NCBI GenBank assembly: GCA_963575745.1
Contig: CAUYUJ010000165.1
Coordinates: 62,001-117,357, forward strand
Reading direction: 5' to 3'
Length of the DNA: 55,357 bases
DNA from: Prorocentrum cordatum
Lineage: Eukaryota
Made by a program: the position numbers and the translations under genes. Position 1 is the stretch's first letter. Every line of letters begins with the position of its first letter. Positions 8,184 through 42,276 of this stretch are shown one piece after another. A model generated the notes under the pieces. The model searched no databases. It was not told where the DNA came from and was given only the letters and a program-made list of their open reading frames with translations.

Positions 8184-9373
8184 GAAGGGGCCCCCAGGAC
8201 ACACACAAAGAAATACACACAAACCAAAAACAAGCCCCCATATCTTCCAACATTTTCTGGGTTCCTGTCTTCCCCCCCACTTCCCATATTTTCCCGTATT
8301 TTCCTGGGAATCGCCGATTCATTGTGGCTGTGTGTTTTTTTCCCTCCTGAAAGAAGGCCGGGTCGTGCAAGGATGGGCCGGTTCTGGGCCACGGGCGGCG
8401 TGCAGCCTCAAGCGCCCGCGCTGGGGTCGCCGCCGGTCGGCACGGCGCGACCCCGCCGCAGAGGGCCACCCGACCCACAGTGCAGCCCGCCGCGGTTCGG
8501 TGCGATCTTCTCGCCGAGCAGCCGAAGGCACCCCGCGGGCCCTGCCTGGCGCGGCAGCCAGGCCAACCGTCCAGCCAGACTCCGCGCTGTTCCCCCCGAC
8601 GCCGTCCGCTGCGGCCCTCCTCGCGCGTGGCCGCCGACTCCCAGGGATCTCGGCTGCGAGGGCCTGCTCAGTGCCATCGGGCCCCACGACTGAAGGGGCC
8701 CTGGGACACACAGACAAATACACACAAATAACACTTGTGTTCCCCATATGTTCCTATATTTTCTGTGTAATTGTCTTCCGCCCCACTTCCCATATTTTCA
8801 AACATTTTTCTGGGGGTCAACGATGAGTTGTGTCCGTATGTTTTTTCCCCTCCTGAACGACGCCCGACAACCGCCCGCCGCGTCCGCCGCCCACGACGGC
8901 GCGACGACGCCCGACGAGCGCGCGCCGCACCGAACGACGACGCACGACGTCACGCGCGGTCCACAGCGACCCTCCGCGCCAGCGTCCGCCGACACTCAGG
9001 GACATCACCGGCGACGACCACCAGGCCCCACAGTCAAGCCGGGTAGTAAGGATGCGCGGTAAGGGTGCAAGGGCCGTGGACGCCCGTTTCGAAGCGTCTC
9101 CAGCGGGGCGCGGCCAACGAAAGTGTCCAGGGATGGACCCAGAAGGCAGGGAAGGGTACCCTTGGGAGGGATGCCTATCCTTAGTATGCGGGTCGCCTGT
9201 AGTGAAGGCCCCCAGGACACACAAATAAATACACACACTTAAACATATCCCCCATATTTTCCTATACCTATATGTTCTGGGTTTTTGTCTTCCCCCCCAC
9301 TCCCCATATTTTGACATATTTTCGGGGGAATCGACGATTCATTGTGTCCGTGTGTTTTGTTTCCCCTCCTGAA
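8184..9373 (+). repeat. Three ~170-bp relatively AT-rich direct repeats (8184-8351, 8692-8857, 9204-9373) separated by unrelated ~340-bp GC-rich segments
   Basis: Each starts GAAGG(GG)CCCC..GGACACAC, contains GTCTTCC.CCCCACT.CCCATATTTT and ends CCCTCCTGAA. Confidence 0.85.
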
Positions 9374-19689: not shown

Positions 19690-19789
19690 NNNNNNNNNNN
19701 NNNNNNNNNNNNNNNNNNNNNNNNNNNNNNNNNNNNNNNNNNNNNNNNNNNNNNNNNNNNNNNNNNNNNNNNNNNNNNNNNNNNNNNNN
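19690..19789. other. Assembly gap (100 N), followed by (TAC)n microsatellite to ~19979
   Basis: Run of n. Confidence 1.
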
Positions 19790-22343: not shown

Positions 22344-23861
22344 CTCTTCGCCCGAACGGGGGGGGCTTCGCACGGCGTGACTCCCCTCCACCTCCATCGT
22401 CCATACCTTCCGACCTCTGCGGATGGCGCGGAGGGTGATGCATGGAAACTGCTGAAAGCCTCAGGAAGCGCAAGAGAACTTAGCATTTCACGAAGCGCAT
22501 GATTGTGGAAGGTCCGCGCGGAAGGTCTGGAAGAATGAGGGCGAGGGTCTCCAGCGGTCGGCACAGCCGAGCGCCACCGGGCAGGCTCCCTGCGGCCTGC
22601 GGCCACGGCCGAGGAGGAAAGCCACTGCGCGAGCACAAACTGTCGGAGGTTGGCGTAGATGTCTCGGACCGGCGCTGGACCCCTCCTGTGGCGGCACCTC
22701 CGGCGCCGCCCCTGGCGCGCTCCGCGCGCCGGGGAGGGGGGGTCCAGCGCTGGACAAAAAACATCCGCGCCGACCTCCAGCAGATTATGCTCGTGGCAGC
22801 TTTCTCGATGCAGCAGCCGCGCCGAGAGATCCGAGCGGGGCCCCCCAAAAGTCTCGGCCCATGCCCCGGGGACAGGTGCTTCATCCTGAGTTGTTTTTTC
22901 ACGGTCCTGGGGCCCAGCGAGGGCTCCCAGAGGCCGAAAACTGTGACAAACCTCCGCCTTGATGATTTTTAATGCGTTGGACCTCTGGGCACATGCGAGA
23001 AGAAATCCTGATATGAGGAATCTACGGGCACATACCTCGTCGGCTCGGAGCTGCGTAGGGTACCCCAGGACCCATCGGGAGGTAGGAGGTTTGTCGTGGG
23101 ACGCCCGCTGGCAGGCCAGTTTCTTCTTTGGTGTGTCTGCGGAACGTACTCCGGGTGGGATATGAATCGAGGGGTGGGCGACTGACCTTCCAACGGAGCT
23201 GGCCCATCCCCCCCTCCTCCTCCTCCTCCTCCTCCACCTCTTCCTCCTCCTCCGCCTCCCCCTCCTCCCTCTCCTCCTCCTCCTCCACCCCCCCATCCGC
23301 CCGTTCCGACAGCACGTGCCCAACCCCCCCAGCGGATCCAAGGAGGGGGCGATGACTGCCCCATACAGAGCATGCTGCGGCCGGGAGAGCTTCTGCTTGG
23401 CCTGCCGCGGCGGCGACCCCCAGCGCGACACGCCGTGCCCCTGCGAGCGGAGGGCGCGTCCCTCCGCTCTGCGGGGCGGGGGGCTCGAGGAGAGACTACT
23501 CGGGGCGCGGACGCTCGGGGACTGGGACGGGGATCGGGCGGGCGGTATCCTCCTCCCTCCTCCTCTCCTCTCATCCTCCCACGCTCCTCTCCTCCTCCTC
23601 CTCTCCTCCTCCTCCTCCTTCCTCCCTCCTCCTCCTCCTCCCCCTCCCCCTCCTCCTCCTCCTCCTCCTCTCCTCCTCCTCCTCCTCCTCCTCCCTCTCC
23701 TCCTCATCCTCCTCCTCCTCCTCCCTTCCTACTCCTCCTCCTTCCTCCTCCTCCTCCTACCTCCTCCCTCCTCCCTCCTCCTCCTCCCCTCTCTCCTCCT
23801 CCCTCCCTCCTCGTCCTCCCTCATCCTCCTCCTCCTCCTCCTCCTCCTCCTCCTCCTCCTC

Positions 23862-28643: not shown

Positions 28644-29371
28644 AAATATTCACCCACCCACCCTGGACATCGCCCCCCCCTAATTACGCAACGCCCAAAC
28701 ATGTTTAGCTGTGTCCGTCTCTGGGACGCCTCTCGATGGACGCAGCTGGAATGAACCCCGGAAGGGGCCCTGGGACCCGTTTCGAGCGGATCGCGGGCCA
28801 GGGGGGGAGGAATGGCCCTGGTGTCTCTGGGCGCCATGGGGAAAAACTGCACGACGGAGGCATCGCCACGCATCGACCCTGTGGTCTCACGAGCCAGTCA
28901 GGCTTGAGGACTTCTGCGTAAAGGAGGGATCGTGAGCTGCGGCGGCTGTGATAATTTCACGACGTCGAGTGTCTGGACTAGGTTTTTGTCCGTAGGCCAT
29001 GGTCAGCAGGAGGAAGGAGGCGGAGGAAGATGGAGTAGAAACAGCAGCATGATGGAACAGGATGGGGATGGGGATGAGGATGATGAAGAGTAGGCATGGC
29101 TCGCGCGATCAAATAGGACGGCCGCCGATGTGCAGCTCCAGATGCGGGTCCGGTGGCGATCGCGATCACTGCGGCAACGCGGCACGGTCGACCTAGACGG
29201 GCTACGGAGAAGTCGGAAGATGAGGAGAAGTAGGAGCAAGCACGGAGGCAGGGAGGGAGGACGAGAACGACGAGGACGGACGAGGGGGAAGGGAGTGGGG
29301 AGGAGCGCAAGAAGGAGCCAGGAGGGACGATGGGAAGGGAACCAGGGAGGAATAGGAGTAAGGAACGCTGC

Positions 29372-30175
29372 TCACTCGTCGTCCTCGTCGGCCTTCTCCA
29401 CGCTGGCAGTCAAAAGGTTCTTCGCCTCGTCTTCCTCTGGCCGGAGCATCTCAACGCCCGCGTCATCACCACCAGAGTGCATCTCCATGAGCTTGGTGAT
29501 GTCGAACTTGGGCTTCTTGAGGATCTTGACCTTCTTAATGTGGACGTCCTTCAAGGGAAAGATGCCCTGAGTCTCCTTCTCTATCTGCTTACCGATGGAC
29601 TCGGGGATGAGCTTCTTCACCAAGTCCCGGAGCTGCACCTTGTTGACCTCACCAGTCATGATGTCTGTCATCTTTTTGCGGATCTTGCGGATCTGTGCCG
29701 TCTGCGCGTAGCAGTTGTTCTTCTCCTGCCCCGGCTGCTTCTTAGTGAACGCGAGGCAGAAAAGGCGCACGAGGTAGCCGTCCGTGGTTTTCACGTCCAC
29801 GTGGGCTTCGATCAGCGTGTGCCATTTGCGGATCAGTGACTGCTGCTTGTCGCGCGTGAGCTCGAGCGCGTGGAAGTCCGTCAGGCAGTTGCGGCCCTGC
29901 ACCTCCTCGATGCAGAGCTTCACCTTCTTGTAGGCCTGGTCCTCGTCGTTGTTCAGGTCCGCCAGGTTGAGCTCCAGCACGCGCCCCTTCAGCTCCTCGG
30001 TGGCGATTTTGGTGCCCTGCGTGCGTGTGACCAAGGTCTTGCCGCAGTTGCGGACGGTGAAGACGCTGGGCGCCTTGATGTCGTACCACTCCTTCTTCAG
30101 GAACGGGTCGCCCGACTTCTTCTTGCCACCCTTCCTGCCTCCCTTGGTGAGGCGCTTGTTCTTGCCAACAGCCAT
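29372..30175 (-). CDS. RPS3A: 40S ribosomal protein S3a (eS1), copy 1, 267 aa, intronless
   Basis: [37 protein letters not shown]...[10 protein letters not shown]...DVKTTDGY...[13 protein letters not shown]...KPKFD is the canonical eS1 sequence; ATG at 30175. Confidence 0.97.
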
Positions 30176-30231
30176 GCCGGTTCGCCCTCTGTCACTCGCT
30201 ACCGCCGCGCAAGTCCGTAGCTTGCCACTAG

Positions 30232-30253
30232 CTTGAGCCCGAACGGCTGTGGA
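30232..30253 (-). promoter_or_regulatory. Relic dinoflagellate spliced leader, probable trans-splice acceptor, upstream of RPS3A copy 1
   Basis: TCCACAGCCGTTCGGGCTCAAG vs DinoSL TCCGTAGCCATTTTGGCTCAAG, 17/22 ungapped, 56 nt before the ATG. Confidence 0.8.
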
Positions 30254-31155
30254 GGCAAGGGACAGCCGAGCTGTGAAAAGCCATTGGCGCGGCGACCCCG
30301 CAGGGAGCCCCATCACAAGCTCCGGAGAAAAGAACGTGGTGATGGGGCCACCCGTTGAACTTACGCGGCCCAGCCCAACGATTAGGTTTTTTCTCTGGTG
30401 TCATCTTCACCCACCCACCCCGGACATCGCCCCCCCCTAATTACGCAACGCCCAAACATGTTTAGCGGTGTCCGTCTCTGGGACGCCTCTCGATGGACGC
30501 AGCTGGAATGGACCCCGGAAGGGGCCCTGGGACCCGTCTCGAGCGGATCGCGGGCCAGGGGGGGAGGAATGGCCCTGGTGTCTCTGGGCGCCATGGGGAA
30601 AAACTGCACGACGGAGGCATCGCCCCGCATCGACCCTGTGGTCTCACGAGCCAGTTAGGCTTGAGGACTTCTGCGTAAAGGAGGGATCGTGAGCTGCGGC
30701 GGCTGTGATAATTTCACGACGTCGAGTGTCTGGGCTAGGTTTTTGTCCGTAGTGTCTGGGCTAGGTTTTTGTCCGTAGGCCATGGTCAGCAGGAGGCAGG
30801 AGGCGGAGGAAGATGGAGTAGAAACAGCAGCATGATGGAACAGGATGGGGATGGGGATGAGGATGATGAAGAGTAGGCATGGCTCGCGCGATCAACTAGG
30901 ACGGCCGCCGATTTGCAGCTCCAGATGCGGGCCTGGTGGCGATCGCGATCACTGCGGCAACGCGGCACGGTCGACCTAGACGGGCTACGGGGAAGTCGGA
31001 AGATGAGGAGAAGTAGGAGCAAGCGCGGAGGCAGGGAGGGAGGACGAGAACGACGAGGACGGACGAGGGGGAAGGGAGTGGGAAGGAGTGCAAGAAGGAG
31101 CCAGGAGGGACGATGGGGAAGGGAACCAGGGGGGAATAGGAGTAAGGAACGCTGC

Positions 31156-31959
31156 TCACTCGTCGTCCTCGTCGGCCTTCTCCACGCTGGCAGTCAAAAG
31201 GTTCTTCGCCTCGTCTTCCTCTGGCCGGAGCATCTCAACGCCCGCGTCATCACCACCAGAGTGCATCTCCATGAGCTTGGTGATGTCGAACTTCGGTTTC
31301 TTGAGGATCTTGACCTTCTTAATGTGGACGTCCTTCAAGGGAAAGATGCCCTGAGTCTCCTTCTCTATCTGCTTACCGATGGACTCGGGGATGAGCTTCT
31401 TCACCAAGTCCCGGAGCTGCACCTTGTTGACCTCACCAGTCATGATGTCTGTCATCTTTTTGCGGATCTTGCGGATCTGTGCCGTCTGCGCGTAGCAGTT
31501 GTTCTTCTCCTGCCCCGGCTGCTTCTTAGTGAACGCGAGGCAGAAAAGGCGCACGAGGTAGCCGTCCGTGGTTTTCACGTCCACGTGGGCTTCGATCAGC
31601 GTGTGCCATTTGCGGATCAGTGACTGCTGCTTGTCGCGCGTGAGCTCGAGCGCGTGGAAGTCCGTCAGGCAGTTGCGGCCCTGCACCTCCTCGATGCAGA
31701 GCTTCACCTTCTTGTAGGCCTGGTCCTCGTCGTTGTTCAGGTCCGCCAGGTTGAGCTCCAGCACGCGCCCCTTCAGCTCCTCGGTGGCGATTTTGGTGCC
31801 CTGCGTGCGTGTGACCAAGGTCTTACCGCAGTTGCGGACGGTGAAGACGCTGGGCGCCTTGATGTCGTACCACTCCTTCTTCAGGAACGGGTCGCCCGAC
31901 TTCTTCTTGCCACCCTTCCTGCCTCCCTTGGTGAGGCGCTTGTTCTTGCCAACAGCCAT
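31156..31959 (-). CDS. RPS3A: 40S ribosomal protein S3a (eS1), copy 2, 267 aa, intronless
   Basis: Protein identical to copy 1 in the ORF track; the three nucleotide differences noticed are synonymous. Confidence 0.97.
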
Positions 31960-32015
31960 GCCGGTTCGCCCTCTGTCACTCGCTACCGCCGCGCAAGTCC
32001 GTAGCTTGCCACTAG

Positions 32016-32037
32016 CTTGAGCCCGAACGGCTGTGGA
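32016..32037 (-). promoter_or_regulatory. Relic spliced leader upstream of RPS3A copy 2
   Basis: Same 22-mer as 30232-30253. Confidence 0.8.
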
Positions 32038-32483
32038 GGCAGGGGACAGCCGAGCTGTGAAAAGCCTTTGGCGCGGCGACCCCGCGGGGAGCCCCATCAC
32101 AAGCTCCGGAGAAAACACCTTGGTGATGGGCCACCCGTTGAACTTACGCGGCCCGGCCCAGCCATATGGCGATCACCTCTCACCTGCGACGAAGCCAGGA
32201 CGAGGACAACATCGGGTGAGGATACACATCGAAAATCTCCGAGATCCAGCGGATCTGGAGGATGTCTCTGGCGCCGCGTCCTTCCCAGAGCGCTCTGGAA
32301 CGGATTCCCCCTCGTCCTCTAGCCCCGTCCGGTCGCCGCTCTCTGGGTACTGGGCCACACCTCCGAGGTCTTGCTCTGTTCAGCGACGCGCTGCGGGGCC
32401 GTGGAGCTCGCGACCGCCACACACACCCTCCAGGGCGCTCAGCTCGGTCGCGGGTCGTGGCCAGGTGGCCAACCTTATATAGG

Positions 32484-32730
32484 TCGGGCCTGTCCTCCTA
32501 CAAGGGGGATTTGGGGCGAAACATCAAACATACACCAAACAATATCAAAAAAATGCTCGAAGATAATAAAGGGATCGTCCCCCTATTATGTTTTACCATT
32601 TTTGGGCGGGCCTGTCCTCCTACGGGAACATTTTTGGCGAAACATCAAACATACACCAAACAATATCAAAGAAAAACTCGGAAATCATAAAGGGATCGTC
32701 CTCGTACTATCTTTTACTATTTTTTGGGGG
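32484..32730. repeat. Tandem dimer of a ~120-bp AT-rich unit
   Basis: GGGCCTGTCCTCCTAC...GGCGAAACATCAAACATACACCAAACAATATCAAA...TAAAGGGATCGTCC occurs twice. Confidence 0.85.
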
Positions 32731-32879
32731 CCCCGCCCGAGGACGGCCGGGACGCACCGGGGGACCTGCAGAGAGACCGCACGCCGTGCACTGACGCACG
32801 CGCCCGGGAGGTCTGTGGCGCCGGGCGGGAGGAGACCAGGTGGCGACATCCGAGCGCGAATATCCAAGACATACAAGTG

Positions 32880-32942
32880 TGTATATACATAAATATTCAC
32901 ATATATACATATACATATACATAGGCATATACATACACATAC

Positions 32943-32982
<40 letters not shown>

Positions 32983-32986
32983 GTAC

Positions 32987-33057
<71 letters not shown>

Positions 33058-33150
33058 AATACAAATACATATACCTATACATAGACATATGCATATACAT
33101 ATACCTATACATATACATATACATATGCATATACATATACATATGCATAC
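32880..33150. repeat. (CATATA)n microsatellite
   Basis: Direct inspection. Confidence 0.95.
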
Positions 33151-34999
33151 ACGTATCAATCGCATCGTCCCGGTCTCCGTGGAATATGTTCCAAGGGGGG
33201 CAGTGGGCAACATGGTCTCTCGGAGGCGCAAATATGACTGGCAGCCGGGATCCGGGGGCGGGGGCACGAGGGGGGGGGTCATCAGTTCTGCTAACAGGGT
33301 TCGGACATTACCCGCACCAACCAGCAGTTCCCCTGAATCGATGGGATGCGAGGGTGGGGCTCAGATTTCGCCACGCGTTCGGCGAATTCCGACCCATGCC
33401 CCCCCCGCCCTTCGAGTTGCTTGGGTCGCTGATCGGCGAGCGCACGGTTCGGAGCCGCCCCCGAGGGACGGAGCGGGAACAGGAAACGACAAGCTCCAGC
33501 GGCGCGCGAAAGGAGGGGCAGAGCCAGGCGGGCGGCCTTCCGGGCCAGGGGCTCTTGAAAAGGGCCCCGTCGCTCCACGGAAGGCGTCCGCGAAAGTTTC
33601 CAAGAAAGCGGCATGGTTCCTACCAGGCGGGGCGTCCTCTTAGAACCCCCCCCCCTCGCCAGGATCGGATGAACAAAACAAGCCGTATAAACACTCCCGG
33701 AGGCTCGTGTCGTGCTGACCTCGGCGTCGGTGTCTAACGCCGCGGGGATCGCTTCGACCTTGAACGCCTGGCCGTTTCTAAAACGTCAGCTTGTTCAACA
33801 TTGACCGACTCTGGGTCCGGACGTCCACGTTCCACGTTGGGCGCCTGCGACGCCCCACGGAAGAGGGAGGAGAAGGGAAGGAGGGAGAAGGAGGAGGAGG
33901 AGGAGGAGGAGGAGGAGAAGGAGGAGGAGGAGGAGGAGGAGGAGGAGGAGCAGGAGCAGGATGAGGACGAGGATAAGGGGAAGGAGAAGGAGGAGGAGGA
34001 GGAGGAGGAGGAGGAGGGATGAGGAGGGAGAAGAGGGGAGGAGGAGGGGGGAGGAGGGAGGAGGGAGGAGGAGGAGGAGGAGGAGGAGGAGCAGGAAGAG
34101 TTCGTCAACAACTCAAGCCCCGCGGGAGGGGGGGGAGGCAGCGAGCCTCCATTCGAATTGACCGCGGTGATGAGCGGCGAGACACCAGCGTCGAGATAGA
34201 CAGGCGGCGGGGAGACCAGCACGGGGGGGGGACGAGGAGAGACGGCAGAGGGCAGCAGTACGGAGGGCTCGATGGGGCGAGGCGGAGGGGGGGAAGATGA
34301 AAGCGGCAGCAATGGCGGCCGCATCGCAATAGAGCGCGGGAGCCTGCCAGCCCGCGTCCGCGAAACGGGCAGCCGTGTTATATGTCGTTTCAATCAAAGC
34401 AGGATGGCGAGCAGGATAAGGACAAGCAATGTGAGAGCCGAGCGGGGGGGGACGGGGACAGGCCGAGCGGGCGTAAATAGACGGCGACAGAGGCACATTT
34501 TCATCATGCAGGCACTAAGGACGGGGACGGAGAGCACCAGGACCACGGCTGGCGAGTAATCGGCGACGGCAATGTCGGAGCAGCTCCCGCGGACACTCGC
34601 GACGAGGGCGAGGCTGACCAGGGCGGTGCAATGCTCGAACATGGGGGCCCAACCTGCCCCTGGTAGACCGTAATCGACGGGCCACTGTCGTCCCCATCGT
34701 CCACGCCAGCAGGGGTGGCAATCTCGGTCGGAGGGGTGGTACATTCTGGAGATGGTGCCGGCGCAGGAGTGAGCCCGGGCGAGGGCGAGCGCGAGCGTGA
34801 CCCACTGGACTCCATCGCGCAGGACTCCAAATCCGAGTCCGACGTCGATCTGACCATTGGCGCGAAGCGCGGGAAGGGGGCGACGGCGCCAGAGACCGCA
34901 GAGCTTGAGCTGCGCGAAGCACGCGAGGCGGACGAGGCCGAAGGGGACGAGGACGACGAGGGGCGGCGCACAGGGCGCCGCCGCGGCCCCAGGAGCGCG

Positions 35000-37900
35000 C
35001 GCTCGCCCTCACTCAGACGGCGGGGCGCGGCCATCCGCACCGAGCGCACGCCCGCGAGGGCGGCGCTGCGGACCCACGGGGGGGGAGAGGGGCCACCCCT
35101 CGGAGCGGCGCGCCGCGTTGTGCAACGCCTGGGCTGCCGTCGCGAACGAGAAGGCCAGCGGCGAGGGTCGCTGCAGGCCGCGCTTCTCCATCGGGTCGGG
35201 GGGGAGAGGTTCGCCCAAAGCCTCTCCCAGCGCTCCACCGGCGCTCCGTGCAGGCGAGGGCGGCGAAGATAGTGGGCAAGCGCACCCCGATGGCCAAGGC
35301 AACCATGCGCGCGGCATCTCCGCCCGCACGGGCGCAGGATCCTCGGGGAGGCGAGCCAGCCGCCGCGCCAGGTGCGCAGGGGGGCCCGGGCCCAGGAACG
35401 CGGACAGCGTCCGAGGAGGAAAACGACGGTGCCCCAATCGATCTCGTCGAGCAGCTCGGGCCTCGCACCGGCGAGTTTCAGCGGCCGTCGACGCAGGTGA
35501 TCGCGAAGCGGGGCAGAACGAACAGCACGAGCACGCGCGGCCCGCTGAGGGCGAGGGCGAGCACAGGGGCTAAGATCTCAGCGCCCCTCAACGGGGGACT
35601 CCGCTAACGGGCACTTTGCCCAGTGACCCAGCGACCCCGGCCCTTCCCGAGGCGGGCCACGCTGCATTGCCAGAAAGAAGCCCCAAAAAGGCAACTTTCG
35701 GCAACATTGCAAAGTACCCGTTATCAAGTATCCGTTACGGCGCCGTTGAAGATCCCGCGCCGCCAGCGCGCCGGGGCGCCCACGCCCCAGGAGGCCCGTC
35801 CCGGGGCCAGGGGGCGGGGCCCCAGCAGCCACGGAGTGAGAGTGCTCCACCGATGCAGGAGAGCGCCAGGCGGGCCGGGCAGCAGCGCCCCGAGCGGGGC
35901 ATCCACGGCGGCCGCTGGGGAGCGCGAGAGCCTCCGCGGCGCGCCTGCAGGTCGCTGGGGGCCCCCCTGCGCTGCGGGAAGGCGACGTGGGCGGCCCGCG
36001 GCAGCGTCGCAGCGTTCAGATGGGGCCATCGCACCGCTCGAGGCCCGCTCCCCACCTCGATCTGGGGCCATGCTTCGGCCGCGAAGGCGCCGAGCGCCGC
36101 GCGAAACACCTGGGCCAGGACGCCCGGGTCCACGCGCAGTGCGCCGGGAGGCAGCCAGCAATATTGCGCCATCCAAGAGAGAGAGAGAGAGAGAGAGGTC
36201 ACAACTCTCGGTTGTAAATGATCGCAGGCATCGCAGCGGGGGCGAGGCCAGTGCTGAGTGAGCGGGCGCGTGGGCGGAGTTTGGCGAGAGGGCCCCTCCA
36301 GAGCCGACCCGAGTCAACAGCGGGGCCAAGCCAGACCCCCAAGCATAGAAGAGACTCCACGATCTCGAACGAGGCCAAGGCAGGGACTGCGAGCTCGACG
36401 CCAGCCCGAAGCCGCTGTTGGAGGCTATCGCTAAAGGCTTCCGATAGCAGGACAAACTTGCATTTCGGGGCCTTGAGCTCCAAATTGGCAGTCCGATCGG
36501 TCAGCGACGTCGCGTCGAATACCGACTTCGAATGTCGCGCAACACTCAGAGCCCCACCAATATCGCCCGCACACTCGCGGATGACCCCACGCCCCGACGC
36601 ATCGACGCGGAGGGCCAGGTCGACCAGGAAGGGCGAAGAGGCCAGCGCGCAGCGTGGGCCCGAGAGCGCGCATCCCTGGAAGATACCACTGCGAACCAAA
36701 TAGAAGTGAGTTTTCTGGCCAGTCAACGCAACGATCCCCTCGATAGCCGAGTAGAGGAAGAACGCGAACATCAAGAAGGCAGAGGGTAACTGGAAGGAGG
36801 CGGGAACGAGCATGAGGAAGCCCTGGTTGAGGAAGGGGAACGTTTGTCCTAAGTCCAGGGAGAAGAGGATCGGGATGTCCTGGAAACCAGACGGTATGAG
36901 TGAGAGCTTCCTGCTGGCGGAGTCGAGCTCCAGCGCGCCGAGGCCGAAGTTCCCCCTGGGAACGAAGCCGCGCTGACGGGCAGGATCCACGCGATCAAGA
37001 ACAGGGCGTACATGCATGTTCATAGTAGCCGATAGAACCTTGACATCGCAATTTCGGAGACCCAGATCGCGAACTTTACCCGGGGAACGAGAGCACGAGC
37101 CACTCTGGAGCTCGTCGTCATCAATGTCATTCGGGAAGGAAGCATGGATCGTCGCGCAAGCCGCGTCGAGGAGCACCCGGCCCGAGGATACCCACTCGAG
37201 ACAGGCGCACGGGACCTCGAGCCCAGACGGATCAGCCTGCCAGGCCGCCTATGGCAGCCCATCTTCATCAGCGGCCGAATGTCGAGCACGAGCTACGACG
37301 GACTTCATCATCCTGAACGCGGGGGGGCGGGAGGTCGAGGTCACCGATGGGGGGGGGGGCCTCGCGAATGCAGGGCTCAGCGGAGGACTCGCCCCATGGG
37401 CGTCTAGGAGAACACAGGGGCCCAGAACTTCTACAAGCAGGCAGGCCGATCACTAGGGGTAGCCGCTGGTGGTGCCTCGCCCGCGTCGGTAACAGCGGCA
37501 AGAGAGACGCGACGGTTGGGCGAAAACCAAATCCGCGGACGCCGCTCCAGCGCCCTCATCTGCGCCCCCAGCTGCCCAGAGCCCCCCTCGCACCCACGTT
37601 GTCTTCGCAGCTCAGTACGGGACGCCTCCACCGCATCGCGCCGCACGCGGTCAGGCCAGGCCGAGAAGGATTGAGGATGCCGCAACTGAACAGCCCCTCC
37701 CTCGCACGCCAGGAAGTCGGACGCCACCGGGTGGGAGCGAATCAACTTCTCAGAAAGCTGGATATCCTGACGCCAGATATATCGGGCAATCGATCGGGCA
37801 AACTGCAGGAGAGTACGAGGATGATGAGGGCAAGCACGAGAGAGACAATCACGGGTTTCACTGGCCGCGATCCGAACCAGCTCCTTGCTGCGCTCAAGAC

Positions 37901-38810
37901 GGCGGGGAGGGGAAAGGCGGCGAAGGTCAGCGCAGTCGATGAGAGCCCGAAGACGACGACGGCAATGGGAACCTGGAACACGCGTCGGTCAATTGGCTGC
38001 TTACCCCTTGGACGGAGAGTGAGAACCACCGCAGTGTGATCAGAGACCAAGCTATATGAGACGTCGGCAGCGGTGCCAACCGTGTTGACCTGCAAAAAGA
38101 GCTGGCCGATAATCCACCCAGGACAAGATAGGAAGAGGCGATCGGTGCACGACTCAAAGTTGCTGGCTATTTTTTCACTGGGCTAGCGAGGCACGCTCCA
38201 CCTCGATCAGCTCGGCGAGCGCACGGCGCCAGATGGCCGCCCGAGCGCGGCGCCGCCGAGCCGCGCGCCGCACGGCGGCCTGCGGCATGCGCAAGACCAC
38301 CGCATTCTCCGCCGCGATGTTGAAGTCCCCATTTACGATGACGGGCTGCTTGGCGGGGTCCTGGGCAGCGAACTCCCTGGCCCCGCGGATGACCCGCGCC
38401 ACCGCAGACACCAGCTCGGCCGCGAGCTCGTGGTCGCGGATGTTGAAGATGTCCAACTGCGCGCCGGCGGCCTCCACCAGCACGCGGAGGGCCCGCCCTG
38501 CAACCAGAGGAACAGCACGGCTCTGAACAGGGTGGCCTCCAAGAACCCCTAGCGCAGGGAGAAGAACTGCAACCCCGCCGCGCACCCGCTCCCCAGGTGA
38601 GTCGCCACAAAATGAGGCGTGAACCGTGACTGCGGGGTCGATATCCCGCGCGAATTCGCATAGTTGCCCGGCATATTCACGAAATTCATGAAGGAAAACC
38701 CTTCTCTTGCCAATGTCGAGCTTCTCCAGGTACCTCCTCTTGAGCGCGGCTTTAGCCCCGGCCGCGTGCAAGAGGGCCCTCGCATTTCAAGGCACTACAC
38801 GTAGCGGAGG
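35000..38810 (-). pseudogene. LINE-A ORF2: APE endonuclease + reverse transcriptase, with stops and frameshifts
   Basis: LRVVP*NARAL, VFLHE, GGVAVL, NGDFNI, SDHTAV (APE motifs); RDLGLRNCDVK, QRGFVP, LDLGQTFP, SGIFQGCALSG, CAGDI (decayed ADD), LCLGVWLG (RT motifs); C-terminal limit approximate. Confidence 0.88.
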
Positions 38811-38859
38811 AATGACACCACCAGGTACGGGGGCGGAGCATCTGAAGAGTCTCGCCACA

Positions 38860-40053
38860 TCAAAGACACCACCGCACCAGGTCACTCTTCTGTAGGTTGT
38901 ACTTCTGCAGCGCGGACGTGTCCCACCAGATCGTCGCTGGAGCCGCTCCCGCCGCCGCTTCGATGGGAAGGATCCTGTCCCAGCCGATGGAGAGGGCGCC
39001 GCGGTCCCGATCGCTGTAGAGACGGAGGTTGGTCCGGGCGTCAGCAATGGCCGACCGACAGCGGCGGAGCAGCATCTCGGTCCGAATCTGGCGTGGGTTC
39101 TTGTCGGGCCCCAAGTGCATCCGCGCACGAGCAGCGCCTGGGACATCCACATAGAACTCCTTCCACACACCACCCACACGAAGACGAGACAAAACGCGCG
39201 GCACCTTGCGCGAGGCCACGGCGACGAGGCCGTGGAACTTGAGCAGGAACTTCTTGCAGGGCGCCTGCCCCGCCGGTGCAATCTCATACTGGTCATCGGG
39301 GAAGCCAAGCTCCGCCAGCTATTCGGAGAGAGCAGCGCAGACAGGCGGACTGCATGGTGGTGGCGTTCTGGCACATAATGACCACCACCGTGGAGTCGAT
39401 ATCCCCTCTCGAAGCCCTGGCTGACCGCCAGCGGCTCGCGCGAGCGGGACTCGGCAAGAGCGAGCTGCTCACGGAGCTCACGCACCTGCTTCTTGAGCTC
39501 GCCAACGTCACCCTCCACCGACGTGGGACGCCCACCATGGTCCTGCAACGTGCCCGTACGCACACCAAGCTGCTCCTGCAACCGACGAGAGGCATCATCC
39601 ACACTACGCCGAACCACCCTGATAATCTCTGCTGGTCGAGCTTGGCGGGCTGGCTGGCGAGCTCGGCTCGCAACTGGCGAGCATCTCGCCGTTAGCCGAG
39701 GCGACGTGGTCGGAGACGCAAGCCTCAACAGAGTTCGCCAATTCCTCCTTGACATCCTCCAAGAGGGTCGGGAAGAGGTCCATGCATACGTGGCGTACGT
39801 AGTCGTCGGACATGTACGCATCATCACCCTCCTGATCTCCTGCGTCGGCAGCAGCAGCAGCAGCAGCACGCTTGCGAGGGACGAACTCGCCGAAGCCGCC
39901 AAGCTGAGGACCGCCAGCAGGAGCTGAACCGCGACCACCCTTGCCCGCGCCCTGGGAGGGCGCAAACGCGGCATCCTGCGAGGCGAACGTGGGGCAGACA
40001 TCGATCGCGGCAGCGTCCTGGGACAACAGCTGGTGGCCAGAGGCAGCCGCCAT
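38860..40053 (-). pseudogene. LINE-A ORF1 (frameshifted)
   Basis: Lies between SL and endonuclease; heptad-like VEGDVGELKKQVRELREQLALAES; C-terminal segment GPDKNPRQIRTE...ALSIGW. Confidence 0.65.
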
Positions 40054-40216
40054 GCCGCGGGATGTGGGAGCGTTCGGACCGACAGGAACGGGAAACGCCT
40101 CCGTTTACCCACCGTCCCGAGCGCAGGGAGAGTGAGTGATAAAAGCTGCCAGACTTCAAAAAGTCCTGCCTGCCGCGGACTAGCGGTATCCACTTCGGCC
40201 CCAGGGGAACTCGCAT

Positions 40217-40238
40217 CTTGAGCCAAAATGGCTACGGA
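40217..40238 (-). other. Perfect 22-nt dinoflagellate spliced leader exon (DinoSL)
   Basis: Plus strand CTTGAGCCAAAATGGCTACGGA = reverse complement of TCCGTAGCCATTTTGGCTCAAG; followed by ATGCG, not the GT intron of an SL RNA gene. Confidence 0.97.
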
Positions 40239-40814
40239 AGGAGAAAGAGGAGGATAAGGAGGAGGAGGAGGAGGAGGAGGAGGAGGAGGAGGAGGACGAG
40301 GACGAGGAGGAGGAGGAGGAGGAGGAGGACGAGGAGGAGGAGGAGGAGAAGGACGAGGAGGAGGAGGAGGAGGAGGGTCGCCTGCGACGTTCCACGTTGA
40401 ACGCCGGCGCTGAGGTCGCCGCCGGTCGACCCGGCGAGGACCCGCCGCCCTTTCTCGGAGGCCCTGCCGCGGAGTCCTCGGGTCGGCCAAGGGCCCCGCT
40501 GGCGGCGCCCTCCGCGCGGGAAGCCCGGAGCAAGTACGGCAAGTCCGCGTCGCGTCGACCGGCGAGGACCCTCCTCCTCCTCCTCCTCCTCCTCCTCCTC
40601 CTCCTCCTCCTCTCCTCCTCCTCCTCCTCCTCCTCCTCCTCCTCCTCCTCCTCCCTCCTCCTCCTCCTCCCCCCCTCCTCCTCCTCCTCCTCCGCCTCAT
40701 CCTCCCCCACCTCCTCCTCCATCTCCTCCTCATCATCCTCCTTTTACTCCTTCTGCCCTCCCCCTCCCGCCCCTTCCTGAAGCTTGAGGGGGGCCTTGTC
40801 TGCGGATGGATGTA

Positions 40815-40954
40815 GGGCAGCGAAGGATGGCACAAACAGAAAAAGTCAAAGGTCCGCACGGACTTCTCGGATCGCCGCCAGGGGGCCCCAGCGCCGATCT
40901 GAGAGATCTGCGCGGACCTCCGAGCTGTTATCTTTATGTCATCCTTCGTTCCCC
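40815..40954. mobile_element. Short MITE-like element with ~27-bp imperfect TIRs
   Basis: GGGCAGCGAAGGATGGCACAAACAGA vs TATCTTTATGTCATCCTTCGTTCCC. Confidence 0.55.
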
Positions 40955-41139
40955 CGGAATCAGGCCAAACAGCCCAGGTTCATTATCCCTCATGCGAAGA
41001 CGGGGACCGAAGTGAGGCCACGTCCTCATCGTGTCATCTTGTTCGGGGGTTCTTTTGCTGTCGATCCTGGTTCTTGCCTCCGCTCGGCCTGTGGCTGCGA
41101 GGGCGCGCCAATCGGCCCGCACAAGAAGCTTCCAAACGA

Positions 41140-41861
41140 TCCCTCCTCCTCAAGCGTCCTCCTTCTCGGAATCCTCCAACTCCTCCAAATCATCAAAATC
41201 CTCCTCCTCCTCCTACTGCTCCTCCTCCTCGCCTTCCTCCCAATACGGCCTCCTGCTACTCCCTCCTCCCCATCTGTTCAGTCCAAGATGGCTCCTCCTA
41301 CTCCTGCTCAGTCTCGCACCTTTCCTCCTCCTCCTCCTCTTGCACCTCCTCGTCTTCCTCCTACTCCTCCTGCTCACACTCCTCCTCCTCCTCCTCCTTC
41401 ACCTCATCATCCTCCTCCTCCTCCTCCTCATCATCATCATCATCACCACCCTCCTCTCAGCACCATCATCATCAGCAGCATCCTCCTCCTCCTTATCAGC
41501 ATCATCACTACCAGCATAATCACAAGCATCGTCATCATCATCACTATCAGCATCATCATCATGTTCATCATCACTATTAGCATCATCATCATCAGCATCA
41601 CCATCAGCAACAGCACCACCATCATCAGATGCATCGGCCTCATCATCAGCAGCAGCAGCATCCTCATCACCACCATCATCACCAGCAGGAGCATAATCAT
41701 CACCATCAGCATCACCACCACCACCATCATTATCATCAGCATGGTCATCAGTATCAGCAGCAGCATCGTCGTCAGCATCAGCAGCATCATCAACATCATC
41801 GTTACCAACATTGTCAGCATACCAGCATCAACCGTAGAATCATCATCATCATCATCATCAG

Positions 41862-41924
<63 letters not shown>

Positions 41925-42125
41925 CATCATCATCATCACCACTATCAGCATCATCATCATCGCGATCACCATCACCATCACCATCACCACCACCAGCATT
42001 ATCATCATCAGCATCGTTGTCGCCATCATCATCAGCATCATCATCAGCATCATCGTCAGCAACATCATCATCATCATGGGCAGCATCAGCATCAGTACCA
42101 TCAGCATCATCATCAACATCATTAC

Positions 42126-42181
<56 letters not shown>

Positions 42182-42206
42182 GCATCATAATCAGCATCAT
42201 CATCAG

Positions 42207-42276
<70 letters not shown>

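What the first reader, a model, noticed from the sequence alone, without database searches (positions are those of the whole stretch)
33860..40377. SL-capped LINE embedded in (CCT)n: a retrotransposon that may use host trans-splicing to define its 5' end
Seen: the minus strand reads (CCT)n - perfect 22/22 DinoSL - ORF1 - APE - RT - (CCT)n, with no SL-gene intron after the SL. Established: DinoSL is added to nuclear mRNAs by trans-splicing, and genomic SL copies fused to genes mark reintegrated cDNAs; R2 elements define their 5' end with a ribozyme, while SLACS/CRE/NeSL elements insert into SL genes. Inference: this LINE transcript was trans-spliced and fully reverse-transcribed. The upstream (CCT)n could serve as a ready polypyrimidine tract and the SL's terminal AG as acceptor, so read-through transcription plus trans-splicing could regenerate the exact 5' end without an internal promoter.
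Basis: partly seen in the sequence, partly recalled or inferred. Interest (0 to 1): 0.85.

Follow-up and report, generated by a model that had tools for sequence, protein, structure and literature searches.

The report
Dead spliced-leader-headed LINE inside (CCT)n repeats
A worn-out jumping gene (a LINE) in a dinoflagellate genome begins with a perfect DNA copy of the short leader these algae splice onto their messenger RNAs and is flanked by CCT repeats, but the repeats look like a side effect of how it inserted, not a device for renewing the leader.

Summary
On the minus strand the order is (CCT)46, a 22/22 DinoSL (40238..40217), a ~6.1 kb APE+RT LINE, then (CCT)78. No GT/GC SL-gene intron follows the leader. 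The copy is dead. It is colinear with Prorocentrum cordatum LINE proteins through 7 frame changes, and its RT active site reads CAGD where three relatives read CADD.

1. The best target-site duplication (13 nt) lies outside both repeat arrays. One contig of a DNA run of the same organism joins the two flanks without the LINE or either array. The leader is therefore not the 5' edge of the inserted block.
2. The first AG after the tract is the leader's internal AG. Published relict leaders are cut there, so re-splicing should leave a relict, not the exact 5' end.
3. The leader plus the next 45 nt is a separate high-copy module with a sharp 3' boundary.

No RNA data and no whole genome were available. 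Purine/pyrimidine tracts cover 7.6% of the window. Earlier notes of this scan report the same kind of element on other DNA of this genome. Verdict: real and moderately interesting; the self-renewal idea is untested and disfavoured.

The parts
40387..40399 (-). Upstream copy of the 13-nt direct repeat CAACGTGGAACGT. This is the best target-site-duplication candidate and lies outside the 5' array.
   Evidence: exact 13-mer in both 60-nt flanks. 7 of 2565 random 60-mer pairs from the window share 13 nt or more.
40379..40389 (-). Upstream copy of the 11-nt direct repeat CGTCGCAGGCG. It overlaps the 13-mer by 3 nt. It is either an alternative TSD or a terminal repeat of the inserted block.
   Evidence: 12 of 2565 random pairs share 11 nt or more; none of the other 8 occurrences of its 8-nt core or its reverse complement lies within 100 nt of a tract.
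40239..40376 (-). 5' (CCT)46 array directly abutting the leader.
   Evidence: period 3, 46.0 copies, 86% matches, no indels.
40217..40238 (-). DNA copy of the dinoflagellate spliced leader, 22 of 22.
   Evidence: 0 mismatches; the next best sites in the window have 5.
40172..40216 (-). 45-nt leader that, together with the SL, forms a high-copy module. It holds an inverted degenerate SL copy (plus strand 40183-40204, 15 of 21).
   Evidence: depth 540-830 in X1 against 2-5 for single-copy contigs of this locus; 7 (X1) and 8 (X2) contigs break off at 40172. Searches cover the pairing.
40054..40171 (-). Rest of the 5' UTR, up to the ATG at 40053.
   Evidence: ORF 39604..40053; one X1 contig of depth about 30 spans about 40082-40192, so a subfamily shares the module/UTR junction.
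38875..40053 (-). N-terminal, ORF1-like coding part. The conserved block is 39360-38875.
   Evidence: 52-54% identity to P0002 and P0004 over 162 aa. No Pfam family.
37599..38780 (-). APE-type endonuclease region and linker, spread over three frames.
   Evidence: Exo_endo_phos, E 0.0096. (P0003 residues 333-675). (P0003 Exo_endo_phos at residues 354-524). The SDH motif is visible.
36211..37326 (-). Reverse transcriptase. Its active-site motif reads CAGD where relatives read CADD.
   Evidence: The relative P0003 matches human L1 ORF2p at E 1.9e-6.
34987..36199 (-). C-terminal part of the LINE protein, in two further frames.
   Evidence: P0002 residues 1058-1157, P0003 residues 986-1055 and 1155-1324.
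34101..34986 (-). 3' untranslated region. It has no A-tail and runs straight into the repeat.
33866..34100 (-). 3' (CCT)78 array. It is composite: pure blocks separated by degenerate stretches.
33842..33852 (-). Downstream copy of the 11-nt repeat.
33827..33839 (-). Downstream copy of the 13-nt repeat (TSD candidate).
   Evidence: The joint 33818 to 40396 skips 6577 nt with 15 other letters between (net 6562). The prediction for insertion plus one 13-nt repeat is 6560.

Best explanation
This is a dead, full-length retrocopy of an APE-type (L1-like) LINE of a dinoflagellate. It runs on the minus strand from 40238 to 34101. Its template RNA, or that of an ancestor of its roughly 10-copy subfamily, carried the 22-nt spliced leader at its 5' end.

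The element has no A-tail and runs into (CCT)n. I infer that it belongs to a family whose RNA ends in that repeat and integrates by pairing the tail with (AGG)n/(CCT)n tracts. Such integration automatically leaves a same-sense pyrimidine tract in front of the leader. The tract is then a by-product of integration, as with microsatellite-specific LINEs.

Shown: the leader, the LINE domains, the decay of the copy, both arrays, the flank repeats, and one contig bridging the flanks.

Inferred: tail-to-tract targeting, and a two-step history in which a repeat-bearing insertion came first and the LINE then landed inside it.

Not shown: any use of the tract or of the leader's last AG for trans-splicing.
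For: - SL 22/22, unique in the window, 0 of 100 shuffles.
- The next bases are AT, not the GU/GC of SL-gene introns.
- Colinear with P. cordatum RT/APE proteins at 42-50% identity, and the relative P0003 matches L1 ORF2p.
- 7 frame changes, and CAGD in place of CADD.
- No A-tail: the 3' UTR runs into (CCT)n.
- Both arrays have the same sense as the LINE. Tracts cover only 7.6% of the window, so exact abutment at both ends is not chance.
- APE-type LINEs that insert specifically into microsatellites are known: Kibi, Koshi, Dong, Waldo, Mino (PMC3812793, passage).
- A contig of depth about 30 spanning about 40082-40192 shows that the leader-module/UTR junction is shared by a subfamily.
- Earlier notes of this scan report other SL-headed LINEs inside (TCC)n in this genome. 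These are leads, not evidence.
Against: - The 13-nt and 11-nt direct repeats lie outside both arrays, and the bridging contig lacks the arrays as well as the LINE. A simple 'LINE into an old tract' history therefore needs an extra earlier event at this site.
- The inserted block has an unexplained 8-10 nt terminal direct repeat.
- The two arrays are no more alike than unrelated arrays: score 190, against 121-200 for 12 other arrays versus the 5' array.
- The other tracts in the window show no clear TSDs, so 'tail-only' insertions are not evident there.
- SL plus 45 nt is far more abundant than the LINE body and ends sharply at 40172. The SL may have arrived as part of that unit and not by trans-splicing of this LINE's RNA.
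- The bridging evidence is one contig of depth 2.5 with 34 nt on its shorter side.
- The in-window relative of the flank matches only the upstream flank significantly: score 82 against a shuffle maximum of 63. The downstream flank scores 25 against a shuffle mean of 24.
- The family's tail and target preference could not be checked on other copies.
Confidence: 0.5

Rival explanations
1. One reading: a self-renewing 5' end. Read-through transcription crosses the upstream (CCT)n. The tract serves as the polypyrimidine tract and the last AG of the DNA-encoded leader serves as acceptor. Trans-splicing then replaces the old leader with a new one and restores the exact 5' end without a promoter.
For: - The tract abuts the leader.
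- The LINE lies on the same strand as the two ribosomal protein S3Ae genes downstream, so read-through in one direction is conceivable.
- This copy has one complete leader and no relict.
- The module/UTR junction is shared by a subfamily, so a complete leader persisted through copying.
- Use of the terminal AG would leave no trace in mature RNA, so relict surveys cannot exclude it (inference).
Against: - The first AG after the tract is the internal one, ending at 40232. Papers report relicts cut there.
- The TSD candidates enclose the tract, so the leader is not the edge of the insert.
- The copy is dead.
- The one host retrogene family in the window (2 copies, leader 17/22) has no (CCT)n array before its leader.
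- The fixed orientation follows from tail-to-tract pairing alone.
Confidence: 0.12
2. One-step copy of an unprocessed read-through RNA. A source copy already sat in a (CCT)n tract. An RNA starting just upstream and ending just downstream of it was reverse-transcribed whole. It carried the tract, the internal (inherited) leader and the source's own short duplication, and it made the 13-nt TSD here.
For: - The 13-nt repeat lies outside both arrays.
- The block ends in CGCAGGCG(A/C)C at both ends, as expected if an old TSD was carried along.
- The size of the skip in the bridging contig fits the 13-nt model: 6562 against 6560.
- The gap in two uninterrupted relatives is 24 nt. The 13-nt model predicts 26 nt and the 11-nt model predicts 49.
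Against: - It needs the RNA's two ends to fall exactly at the outer edges of the old duplication, which is an unlikely coincidence.
- There is no leader at the block's own 5' end and no A-tail at its 3' end.
- It rests on one bridging contig.
Confidence: 0.2
3. The leader came with a separate 67-nt unit. SL plus 45 nt is a discrete RNA or DNA module: an SL-like small RNA, a long-form leader, or a shared retroposon 'head'. It was fused once to this LINE's 5' UTR, for example by template switching of the reverse transcriptase, and was then inherited. This does not conflict with the account of the arrays in the main explanation.
For: - Depth is 540-830 at 40193-40216 in X1, 34-52 at 40131-40160, and about 2-17 over the 254-nt bins between 35940 and 40003.
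- 7 (X1) and 8 (X2) contigs leave at exactly 40172 into unlike sequence, with agreement 0.55-0.56.
- The module contains an inverted degenerate leader (15/21) that gives 12 contiguous pairs with the SL. That length is reached in 124 of 20000 shuffles and in 11 of 3678 genomic 60-mers.
- SL-like genes without donor sites, expressed at levels like real SL genes, are reported in Fugacium (PMC6616646, passage).
- A shared 77-nt 5' module heads trypanosomatid retroposons (PMC8190864, abstract).
Against: - The module's folding energy is unremarkable: z -1.33, and 19 of 200 shuffles fold as well.
- It matches no Rfam family.
- It is not the conserved SL RNA intron.
- Depths are sums over contigs and only rough copy numbers.
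- The sequences that follow the module elsewhere could not be read.
- The 21-nt leader pattern has 0 exact matches in the metagenome and viral collections.
Confidence: 0.25
4. It is an SL RNA gene, or a LINE that targets SL genes in the manner of SLACS/CRE/NeSL.
For: A complete leader sequence lies next to a LINE.
Against: - There is no GU/GC donor after the leader.
- There is only one leader in 55 kb and no SL array.
- The leader lies at the element's head in sense orientation and is not split by the insertion.
- The endonuclease is APE-type.
Confidence: 0.02

Closest known systems
DinoSL-tagged retrogenes ('recycled' processed cDNAs) of dinoflagellates
   Same: A DNA copy of the trans-spliced leader sits at the head of an intronless retrocopy (passages in PMC12014239, PMC7245778, PMC3229502, PMC5585692). 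The same window holds a host example: two tandem ribosomal protein S3Ae genes, each with a 17/22 leader.
   Different: - Here the tagged unit is the autonomous LINE itself, the presumed source of the reverse transcriptase.
- It has no A-tail and no relict.
- The leader is separated from the TSD candidate by a 138-nt repeat.
- Song et al. 2017 report enrichment of 'RNA-dependent DNA replication' among retrogenes (passage). Beyond that, I found no paper describing LINEs headed by DinoSL.
Microsatellite-specific APE-type LINEs (Kibi on TC, Koshi on TTC, Dong on TAA, Waldo on ACAY, Mino on AC)
   Same: An APE-type LINE is flanked on both sides by one simple repeat in one orientation, with no A-tail (PMC3812793, passage).
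   Different: - The repeat unit is CCT.
- The host is a dinoflagellate.
- The element is headed by a spliced leader.
- Target specificity of this family was not tested on other copies.
- Its clade among LINEs was not determined.
Pr77-headed retroposons of trypanosomatids (L1Tc/ingi, NARTc/RIME, SIDER, DIRE)
   Same: A short 5' module is shared by different retroposon families in an organism that trans-splices its mRNAs (PMC8190864 and PMC1874656, abstracts in the listing). The analogy is to the high-copy SL+45 module.
   Different: Pr77 is an internal promoter that gives unspliced transcripts. The module here begins with the spliced leader itself, and its function is unknown.
SLACS/CRE/NeSL elements
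   Same: A non-LTR element is physically associated with spliced-leader sequence.
   Different: Those elements insert into SL RNA genes. Here there is no SL gene, no donor site and no SL array.
U6-L1 chimeric retrocopies and SINEs with snRNA-derived heads (the first is recalled; the second is PMC4494074, title and abstract in the listing)
   Same: They are a possible model for a small-RNA-derived 5' unit fused at a sharp point to a LINE-mobilised sequence.
   Different: It is not shown here that SL+45 is a small RNA.

Membership tests
APE-type non-LTR retrotransposon (LINE) | Reverse transcriptase domain of the non-LTR type | tested here: met
   The copy hits RVT_1 at E 0.0014, below cut-off. 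It is colinear at 42-50% identity with proteins that pass RVT_1 at 5e-10 and 7e-12. P0003 matches L1 ORF2p at E 1.9e-6. The active site is mutated in this copy.
APE-type non-LTR retrotransposon (LINE) | Apurinic-type endonuclease N-terminal to the RT | tested here: inconclusive
   Exo_endo_phos scores E 0.0096 in the copy and 8.9e-5 in P0003; both are below Pfam's cut-off. The order is right and an SDH motif is visible.
APE-type non-LTR retrotransposon (LINE) | No long terminal repeats; target-site duplication at the ends | tested here: inconclusive
   The only long repeats are the microsatellites. Direct repeats of 13 and 11 nt exist, but they enclose the arrays too.
DinoSL-tagged retrocopy | Leader sequence at the 5' end of the copied unit, not followed by an SL-gene intron | tested here: met
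   22/22 match. The next bases are AT.
DinoSL-tagged retrocopy | Leader is the first sequence inside the target-site duplication | tested here: not met
   148 nt (a 10-nt repeat plus the 138-nt array) lie between the 13-nt repeat and the leader. The bridging contig lacks the arrays.
DinoSL-tagged retrocopy | Poly(A) tail at the 3' end | tested here: not met
   The 3' UTR runs into (CCT)n.
Microsatellite-specific LINE | Copies of the family lie in one kind of repeat, in one orientation | not testable with these tools
   This copy fits. No other copy could be fetched: no genome is held, the metagenome scan gave 0 hits for the leader pattern and 2 weak RT loci of 163 candidate stretches, and the window has no second copy.
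SL RNA gene / SL-gene-targeting LINE | GU or GC donor and intron after the 22-nt exon; SL genes in arrays | tested here: not met

The most novel reading that the evidence does not exclude
The 67-nt unit (leader plus 45 nt, containing an inverted leader copy) is a dedicated 5' head shared by several dinoflagellate retroposon families. It lets promoter-less LINEs ride host read-through transcription, and it is renewed at each cycle by trans-splicing, with the (CCT)n left by tail-targeted insertion serving as the pyrimidine tract. In that case the elements that make dinoflagellate retrogenes would themselves depend on the spliced-leader machinery.
Probability: 0.12. Interest if true: 0.85.

Novelty: new variant of a known kind. 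Interest (0 to 1): 0.5.

Why it matters
Dinoflagellate genomes are full of retrocopied genes that carry leader relicts, and the enzyme source is only presumed to be LINEs (PMC5585692 and PMC12014239, passages). A LINE that itself carries the leader shows that LINE RNA passes through the same mRNA processing as host genes, and it ties these elements to the recycling process. If the leader or the 67-nt module is renewed at each cycle, that would be a way for a retrotransposon to define its 5' end without a promoter, by a route different from R2 ribozymes or the Pr77 promoter. This copy alone cannot show that. Its value lies in the anatomy: the TSD lies outside the repeats, and there is a sharp-edged high-copy module. 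Together these say which genome-wide counts and which cDNA reads would decide the question.

Tried and rejected
- Whole genome of the window: not held.
- Other copies in public collections:
  - the 21-nt leader pattern gave 0 matches in metagenome contigs and 0 in viral contigs;
  - the RT protein gave 2 weak loci of 163 candidate stretches (31 aa matched), neither with a leader.
- Sequencing runs: no RNA holder was listed, so expression and the splice site could not be examined. Runs X3 and X4 added nothing beyond short low-complexity matches.
- The repeats themselves were skipped by the read-laying tool, so the array/leader junction has no independent cover.
- Rfam: no family at gathering score in the window, and only chance-level hits around the leader.
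- Earlier findings searched by sequence or by relatives: nothing. By words for 'CCT ... polypyrimidine': nothing. Near this place: nothing.
- Protein search with the 130-aa frame that starts at the ATG after the leader: none of 60 candidates reached E 10.
- Is the 5' array a copy of the 3' array? No: the alignment score lies within the range of 12 unrelated arrays.
- Are the other tracts in the window tail-only insertions with TSDs? No clear case. The repeats found were array sequence itself, apart from one non-adjacent 10-mer.
- Is CGCAGGCG the end of a general microsatellite-core element? None of the 8 other occurrences of it or its complement is within 100 nt of a tract.
- Does the in-window relative at 8395-8586 prove an empty site? 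Only the upstream flank aligns significantly; the downstream flank does not.
- The paper with the original SL RNA gene sequences (PMC1838650) is not held, so the Prorocentrum SL RNA intron was not compared directly.
- Supplements of PMC6616646 (its SL gene sequences) were not opened.

Full report
**What is there**

On the minus strand the window reads, 5' to 3':
- a (CCT)n array at 40376..40239 (46.0 units, 86% matches, no indels);
- the 22-nt dinoflagellate spliced leader at 40238..40217;
- an ATG at 40216;
- about 6.1 kb of LINE sequence;
- a second (CCT)n array at 34100..33866 (78.3 units, 79% matches).

The 21-nt leader core occurs once in the 55,357-base window even with three mismatches allowed, and 0 of 100 shuffles gave a match. 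A scan allowing more mismatches finds only two other leader-like sites on that strand, each with 5 mismatches. The consensus I compared with is the one printed in PMC7245778 (passage).

**The LINE**

Pfam on the open pieces is weak: RVT_1 at E 0.0014 and Exo_endo_phos at E 0.0096, both below cut-off. The RT piece finds three proteins named by NCBI as Prorocentrum cordatum products (1310-1887 aa, 42-50% identity) and one 193-aa fragment (55% identity). Two of these pass RVT_1, and one has Exo_endo_phos at 8.9e-5, below cut-off. P0003 matches human L1 ORF2p at E 1.9e-6.

By tblastn the element is colinear with P0003 residues 93-1324 from 39602 down to 34987. The eight pieces lie in frames 2,1,2,3,2,1,3,1, which is seven frame changes. 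The RT motif reads CAGDIGG where P0002 and P0003 read CADDIGG. There is no second copy in the window. The 3' UTR (34986..34101) has no A-tail and runs straight into the repeat.

**Not an SL gene**

The leader is followed by AT. SL-gene introns in Fugacium start with GU or GC (PMC6616646, passage). The general dinoflagellate SL RNA probe listed in PMC3101222 Table 1 implies CAAG followed by GTACA. Rfam gives nothing.

**Are the repeats special?**

Homopurine or homopyrimidine tracts are common here: 28 tracts, 7.6% of the window. A random insertion would land in one a few per cent of the time. Exact abutment at both ends in the sense orientation is therefore meaningful but not extraordinary. 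The two arrays are no more alike than unrelated arrays: score 190, against 121-200 for twelve other arrays versus the 5' array.

**Where the insertion ends**

The 60 nt outside the two arrays share two exact direct repeats, in swapped order:
- a 13-mer at 40399..40387 and 33839..33827;
- an 11-mer at 40389..40379 and 33852..33842.

Among 2565 random pairs of 60-mers from the window, 7 share 13 nt or more and 12 share 11 nt or more.

I laid the contigs of four public runs on 33400-41000. Run X1 holds this very locus: several contigs have no differences. One X1 contig (depth 2.5, 34 nt on its shorter side) joins 33818 to 40396 with 15 other letters between, skipping 6577 nt. The net difference of 6562 nt fits the 6560 nt expected for the block plus one 13-mer.

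A weak relative of the upstream flank lies in the window at 8395-8586 (score 82, shuffle maximum 63). The downstream flank does not align there significantly (score 25, shuffle mean 24). The gap length in both uninterrupted relatives (24 nt) fits the 13-mer model (26 nt) better than the 11-mer model (49 nt).

Whichever repeat is the true duplication, both arrays lie inside it. The leader is therefore not the 5' edge of the DNA that is extra at this site. The block also ends in CGCAGGCG(A/C)C on both sides, which I cannot explain. None of the eight other occurrences of that 8-mer or its complement is within 100 nt of a tract.

**Possible histories**

1. Two steps. A repeat-bearing insertion came first, and a leader-headed LINE cDNA then integrated into that repeat by tail-to-tract pairing. 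This is how microsatellite-specific APE LINEs are thought to end up inside repeats (PMC3812793, passage). It explains the fixed orientation without any role for splicing.
2. One step. An unprocessed read-through RNA from a source copy carried the tract and the source's own duplication along. That would be a case in which the tract and leader were not used for trans-splicing.

I prefer (1), because (2) needs both RNA ends to coincide with an old duplication. The data do not decide between them.

**The proposed acceptor**

After the tract the first AG ends at 40232, inside the leader (GTAG). The terminal AG ends at 40217. Three papers state that relict leaders are cut after the internal AG: PMC3229502, PMC5585692 and PMC6616646 (passages). 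PMC12014239 adds further truncated forms. Re-splicing of a DNA-encoded leader is thus expected to leave a relict. This copy has none.

No run on record as RNA was listed, so nothing could be observed.

The only host comparison in the window is a tandem pair of intronless ribosomal protein S3Ae genes on the same strand (32172..31159 and 30400..29375; Pfam 2e-76). Each is headed by a degenerate full-length leader (17/22, at 32037..32016 and 30253..30232). That leader is preceded by ordinary pyrimidine-rich sequence, not a (CCT)n array.

**An unexpected module**

In X1, depth is about 2-5 for the contigs identical to this locus, 34-52 at 40131-40160, and 540-830 at 40193-40216. In the metagenome run X2 it is 83-90 there. 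Seven X1 contigs and eight X2 contigs match down to exactly 40172 and then continue into sequences unlike this locus and unlike each other (agreement 0.55-0.56). From the distances to contig ends, one X1 contig of depth about 30 spans about 40082-40192. A subfamily of roughly ten copies therefore shares the junction between this module and the LINE's UTR.

The 67-nt unit consists of:
- the leader;
- 12 nt;
- an inverted degenerate leader (15/21, plus strand 40183-40204);
- 11 nt.

The leader forms 12 contiguous pairs with the inverted copy. That length is reached in 124 of 20000 shuffles and in 11 of 3678 genomic 60-mers. The unit's folding energy is ordinary, however: z -1.33, and 19 of 200 shuffles fold as well.

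A sharp edge with many partners is what a discrete unit gives. Such a unit could be an SL-like small RNA, a long-form leader, or a shared retroposon head comparable to Pr77 of trypanosomatids (abstracts listed). This weakens the simple inference that this LINE's own RNA was trans-spliced at 40216. I could not read the partner sequences.

**Literature and earlier notes**

Six searches were run. Among the papers held I found no description of LINEs headed by DinoSL. The nearest is Song et al. 2017, who report 'RNA-dependent DNA replication' enriched among leader-tagged retrogenes (passage).

This scan has noted leader-headed LINEs on other DNA of the same genome at least ten times. Two of those are inside (TCC)n, and one was judged a normal result of repeat-targeted insertion. 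I treated these notes as leads. My own result agrees on the by-product reading. It adds the TSD outside the arrays and the 67-nt module.

**Verdict**

The self-renewing mechanism is untested and is disfavoured by the position of the duplication and by the known acceptor choice. The finding is a new variant of a known kind, leader-tagged retrocopies extended to the autonomous element. Interest is moderate.

Noticed in passing
window 32172..31159 and 30400..29375, minus strand; leaders at 32037..32016 and 30253..30232: Two tandem intronless ribosomal protein S3Ae genes (Pfam 2e-76 each). Each is headed by the same degenerate full-length spliced leader (17 of 22) about 55 nt before the ATG. This is a host retrogene that was duplicated at the DNA level. 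It lies on the same strand as the LINE and downstream of it.
   Followed up: partly
window 31149..30998 and 29365..29215, minus strand: Each S3Ae gene is followed by a ~150-nt pyrimidine-rich 3' tract. Each tract ends next to CCGTAGCC, the first 8 bases of the leader core. This may be the worn start of another leader.
   Followed up: no
window 40815-40954: A 140-nt imperfect palindrome (71% self-complementary). Its core at 40873-40924 has summed contig depth up to about 15,000 in run X1 and about 3,700 in X2. It is a very high-copy repeat, and a weak copy lies at 22643-22695.
   Followed up: partly
window 40239-40778: The 5' (CCT)n of the LINE and an oppositely oriented array (40570-40767) enclose a 193-nt GC-rich spacer. 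The spacer is itself repeated in the genome (summed depth about 190 in X1) and has a relative at 8395-8586.
   Followed up: partly
window 40172-40238: The leader and an inverted degenerate leader copy 12 nt downstream can form a 12-bp stem. The stem length is rare in shuffles (0.6%), but the total folding energy is not unusual.
   Followed up: yes
window 32485-32732 and 32882-33149: A 121-nt tandem repeat (2 copies, 84% matches) and an (ATATAC)n array of about 41 units lie between the S3Ae genes and the LINE.
   Followed up: no
window 41404-42276: A long degenerate (TCA)n-like array (about 290 units, 76% matches) lies upstream of the element. Open frames there gave no Pfam family.
   Followed up: no
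window 19690-19789: A run of 100 N (assembly gap), far from the element.
   Followed up: no
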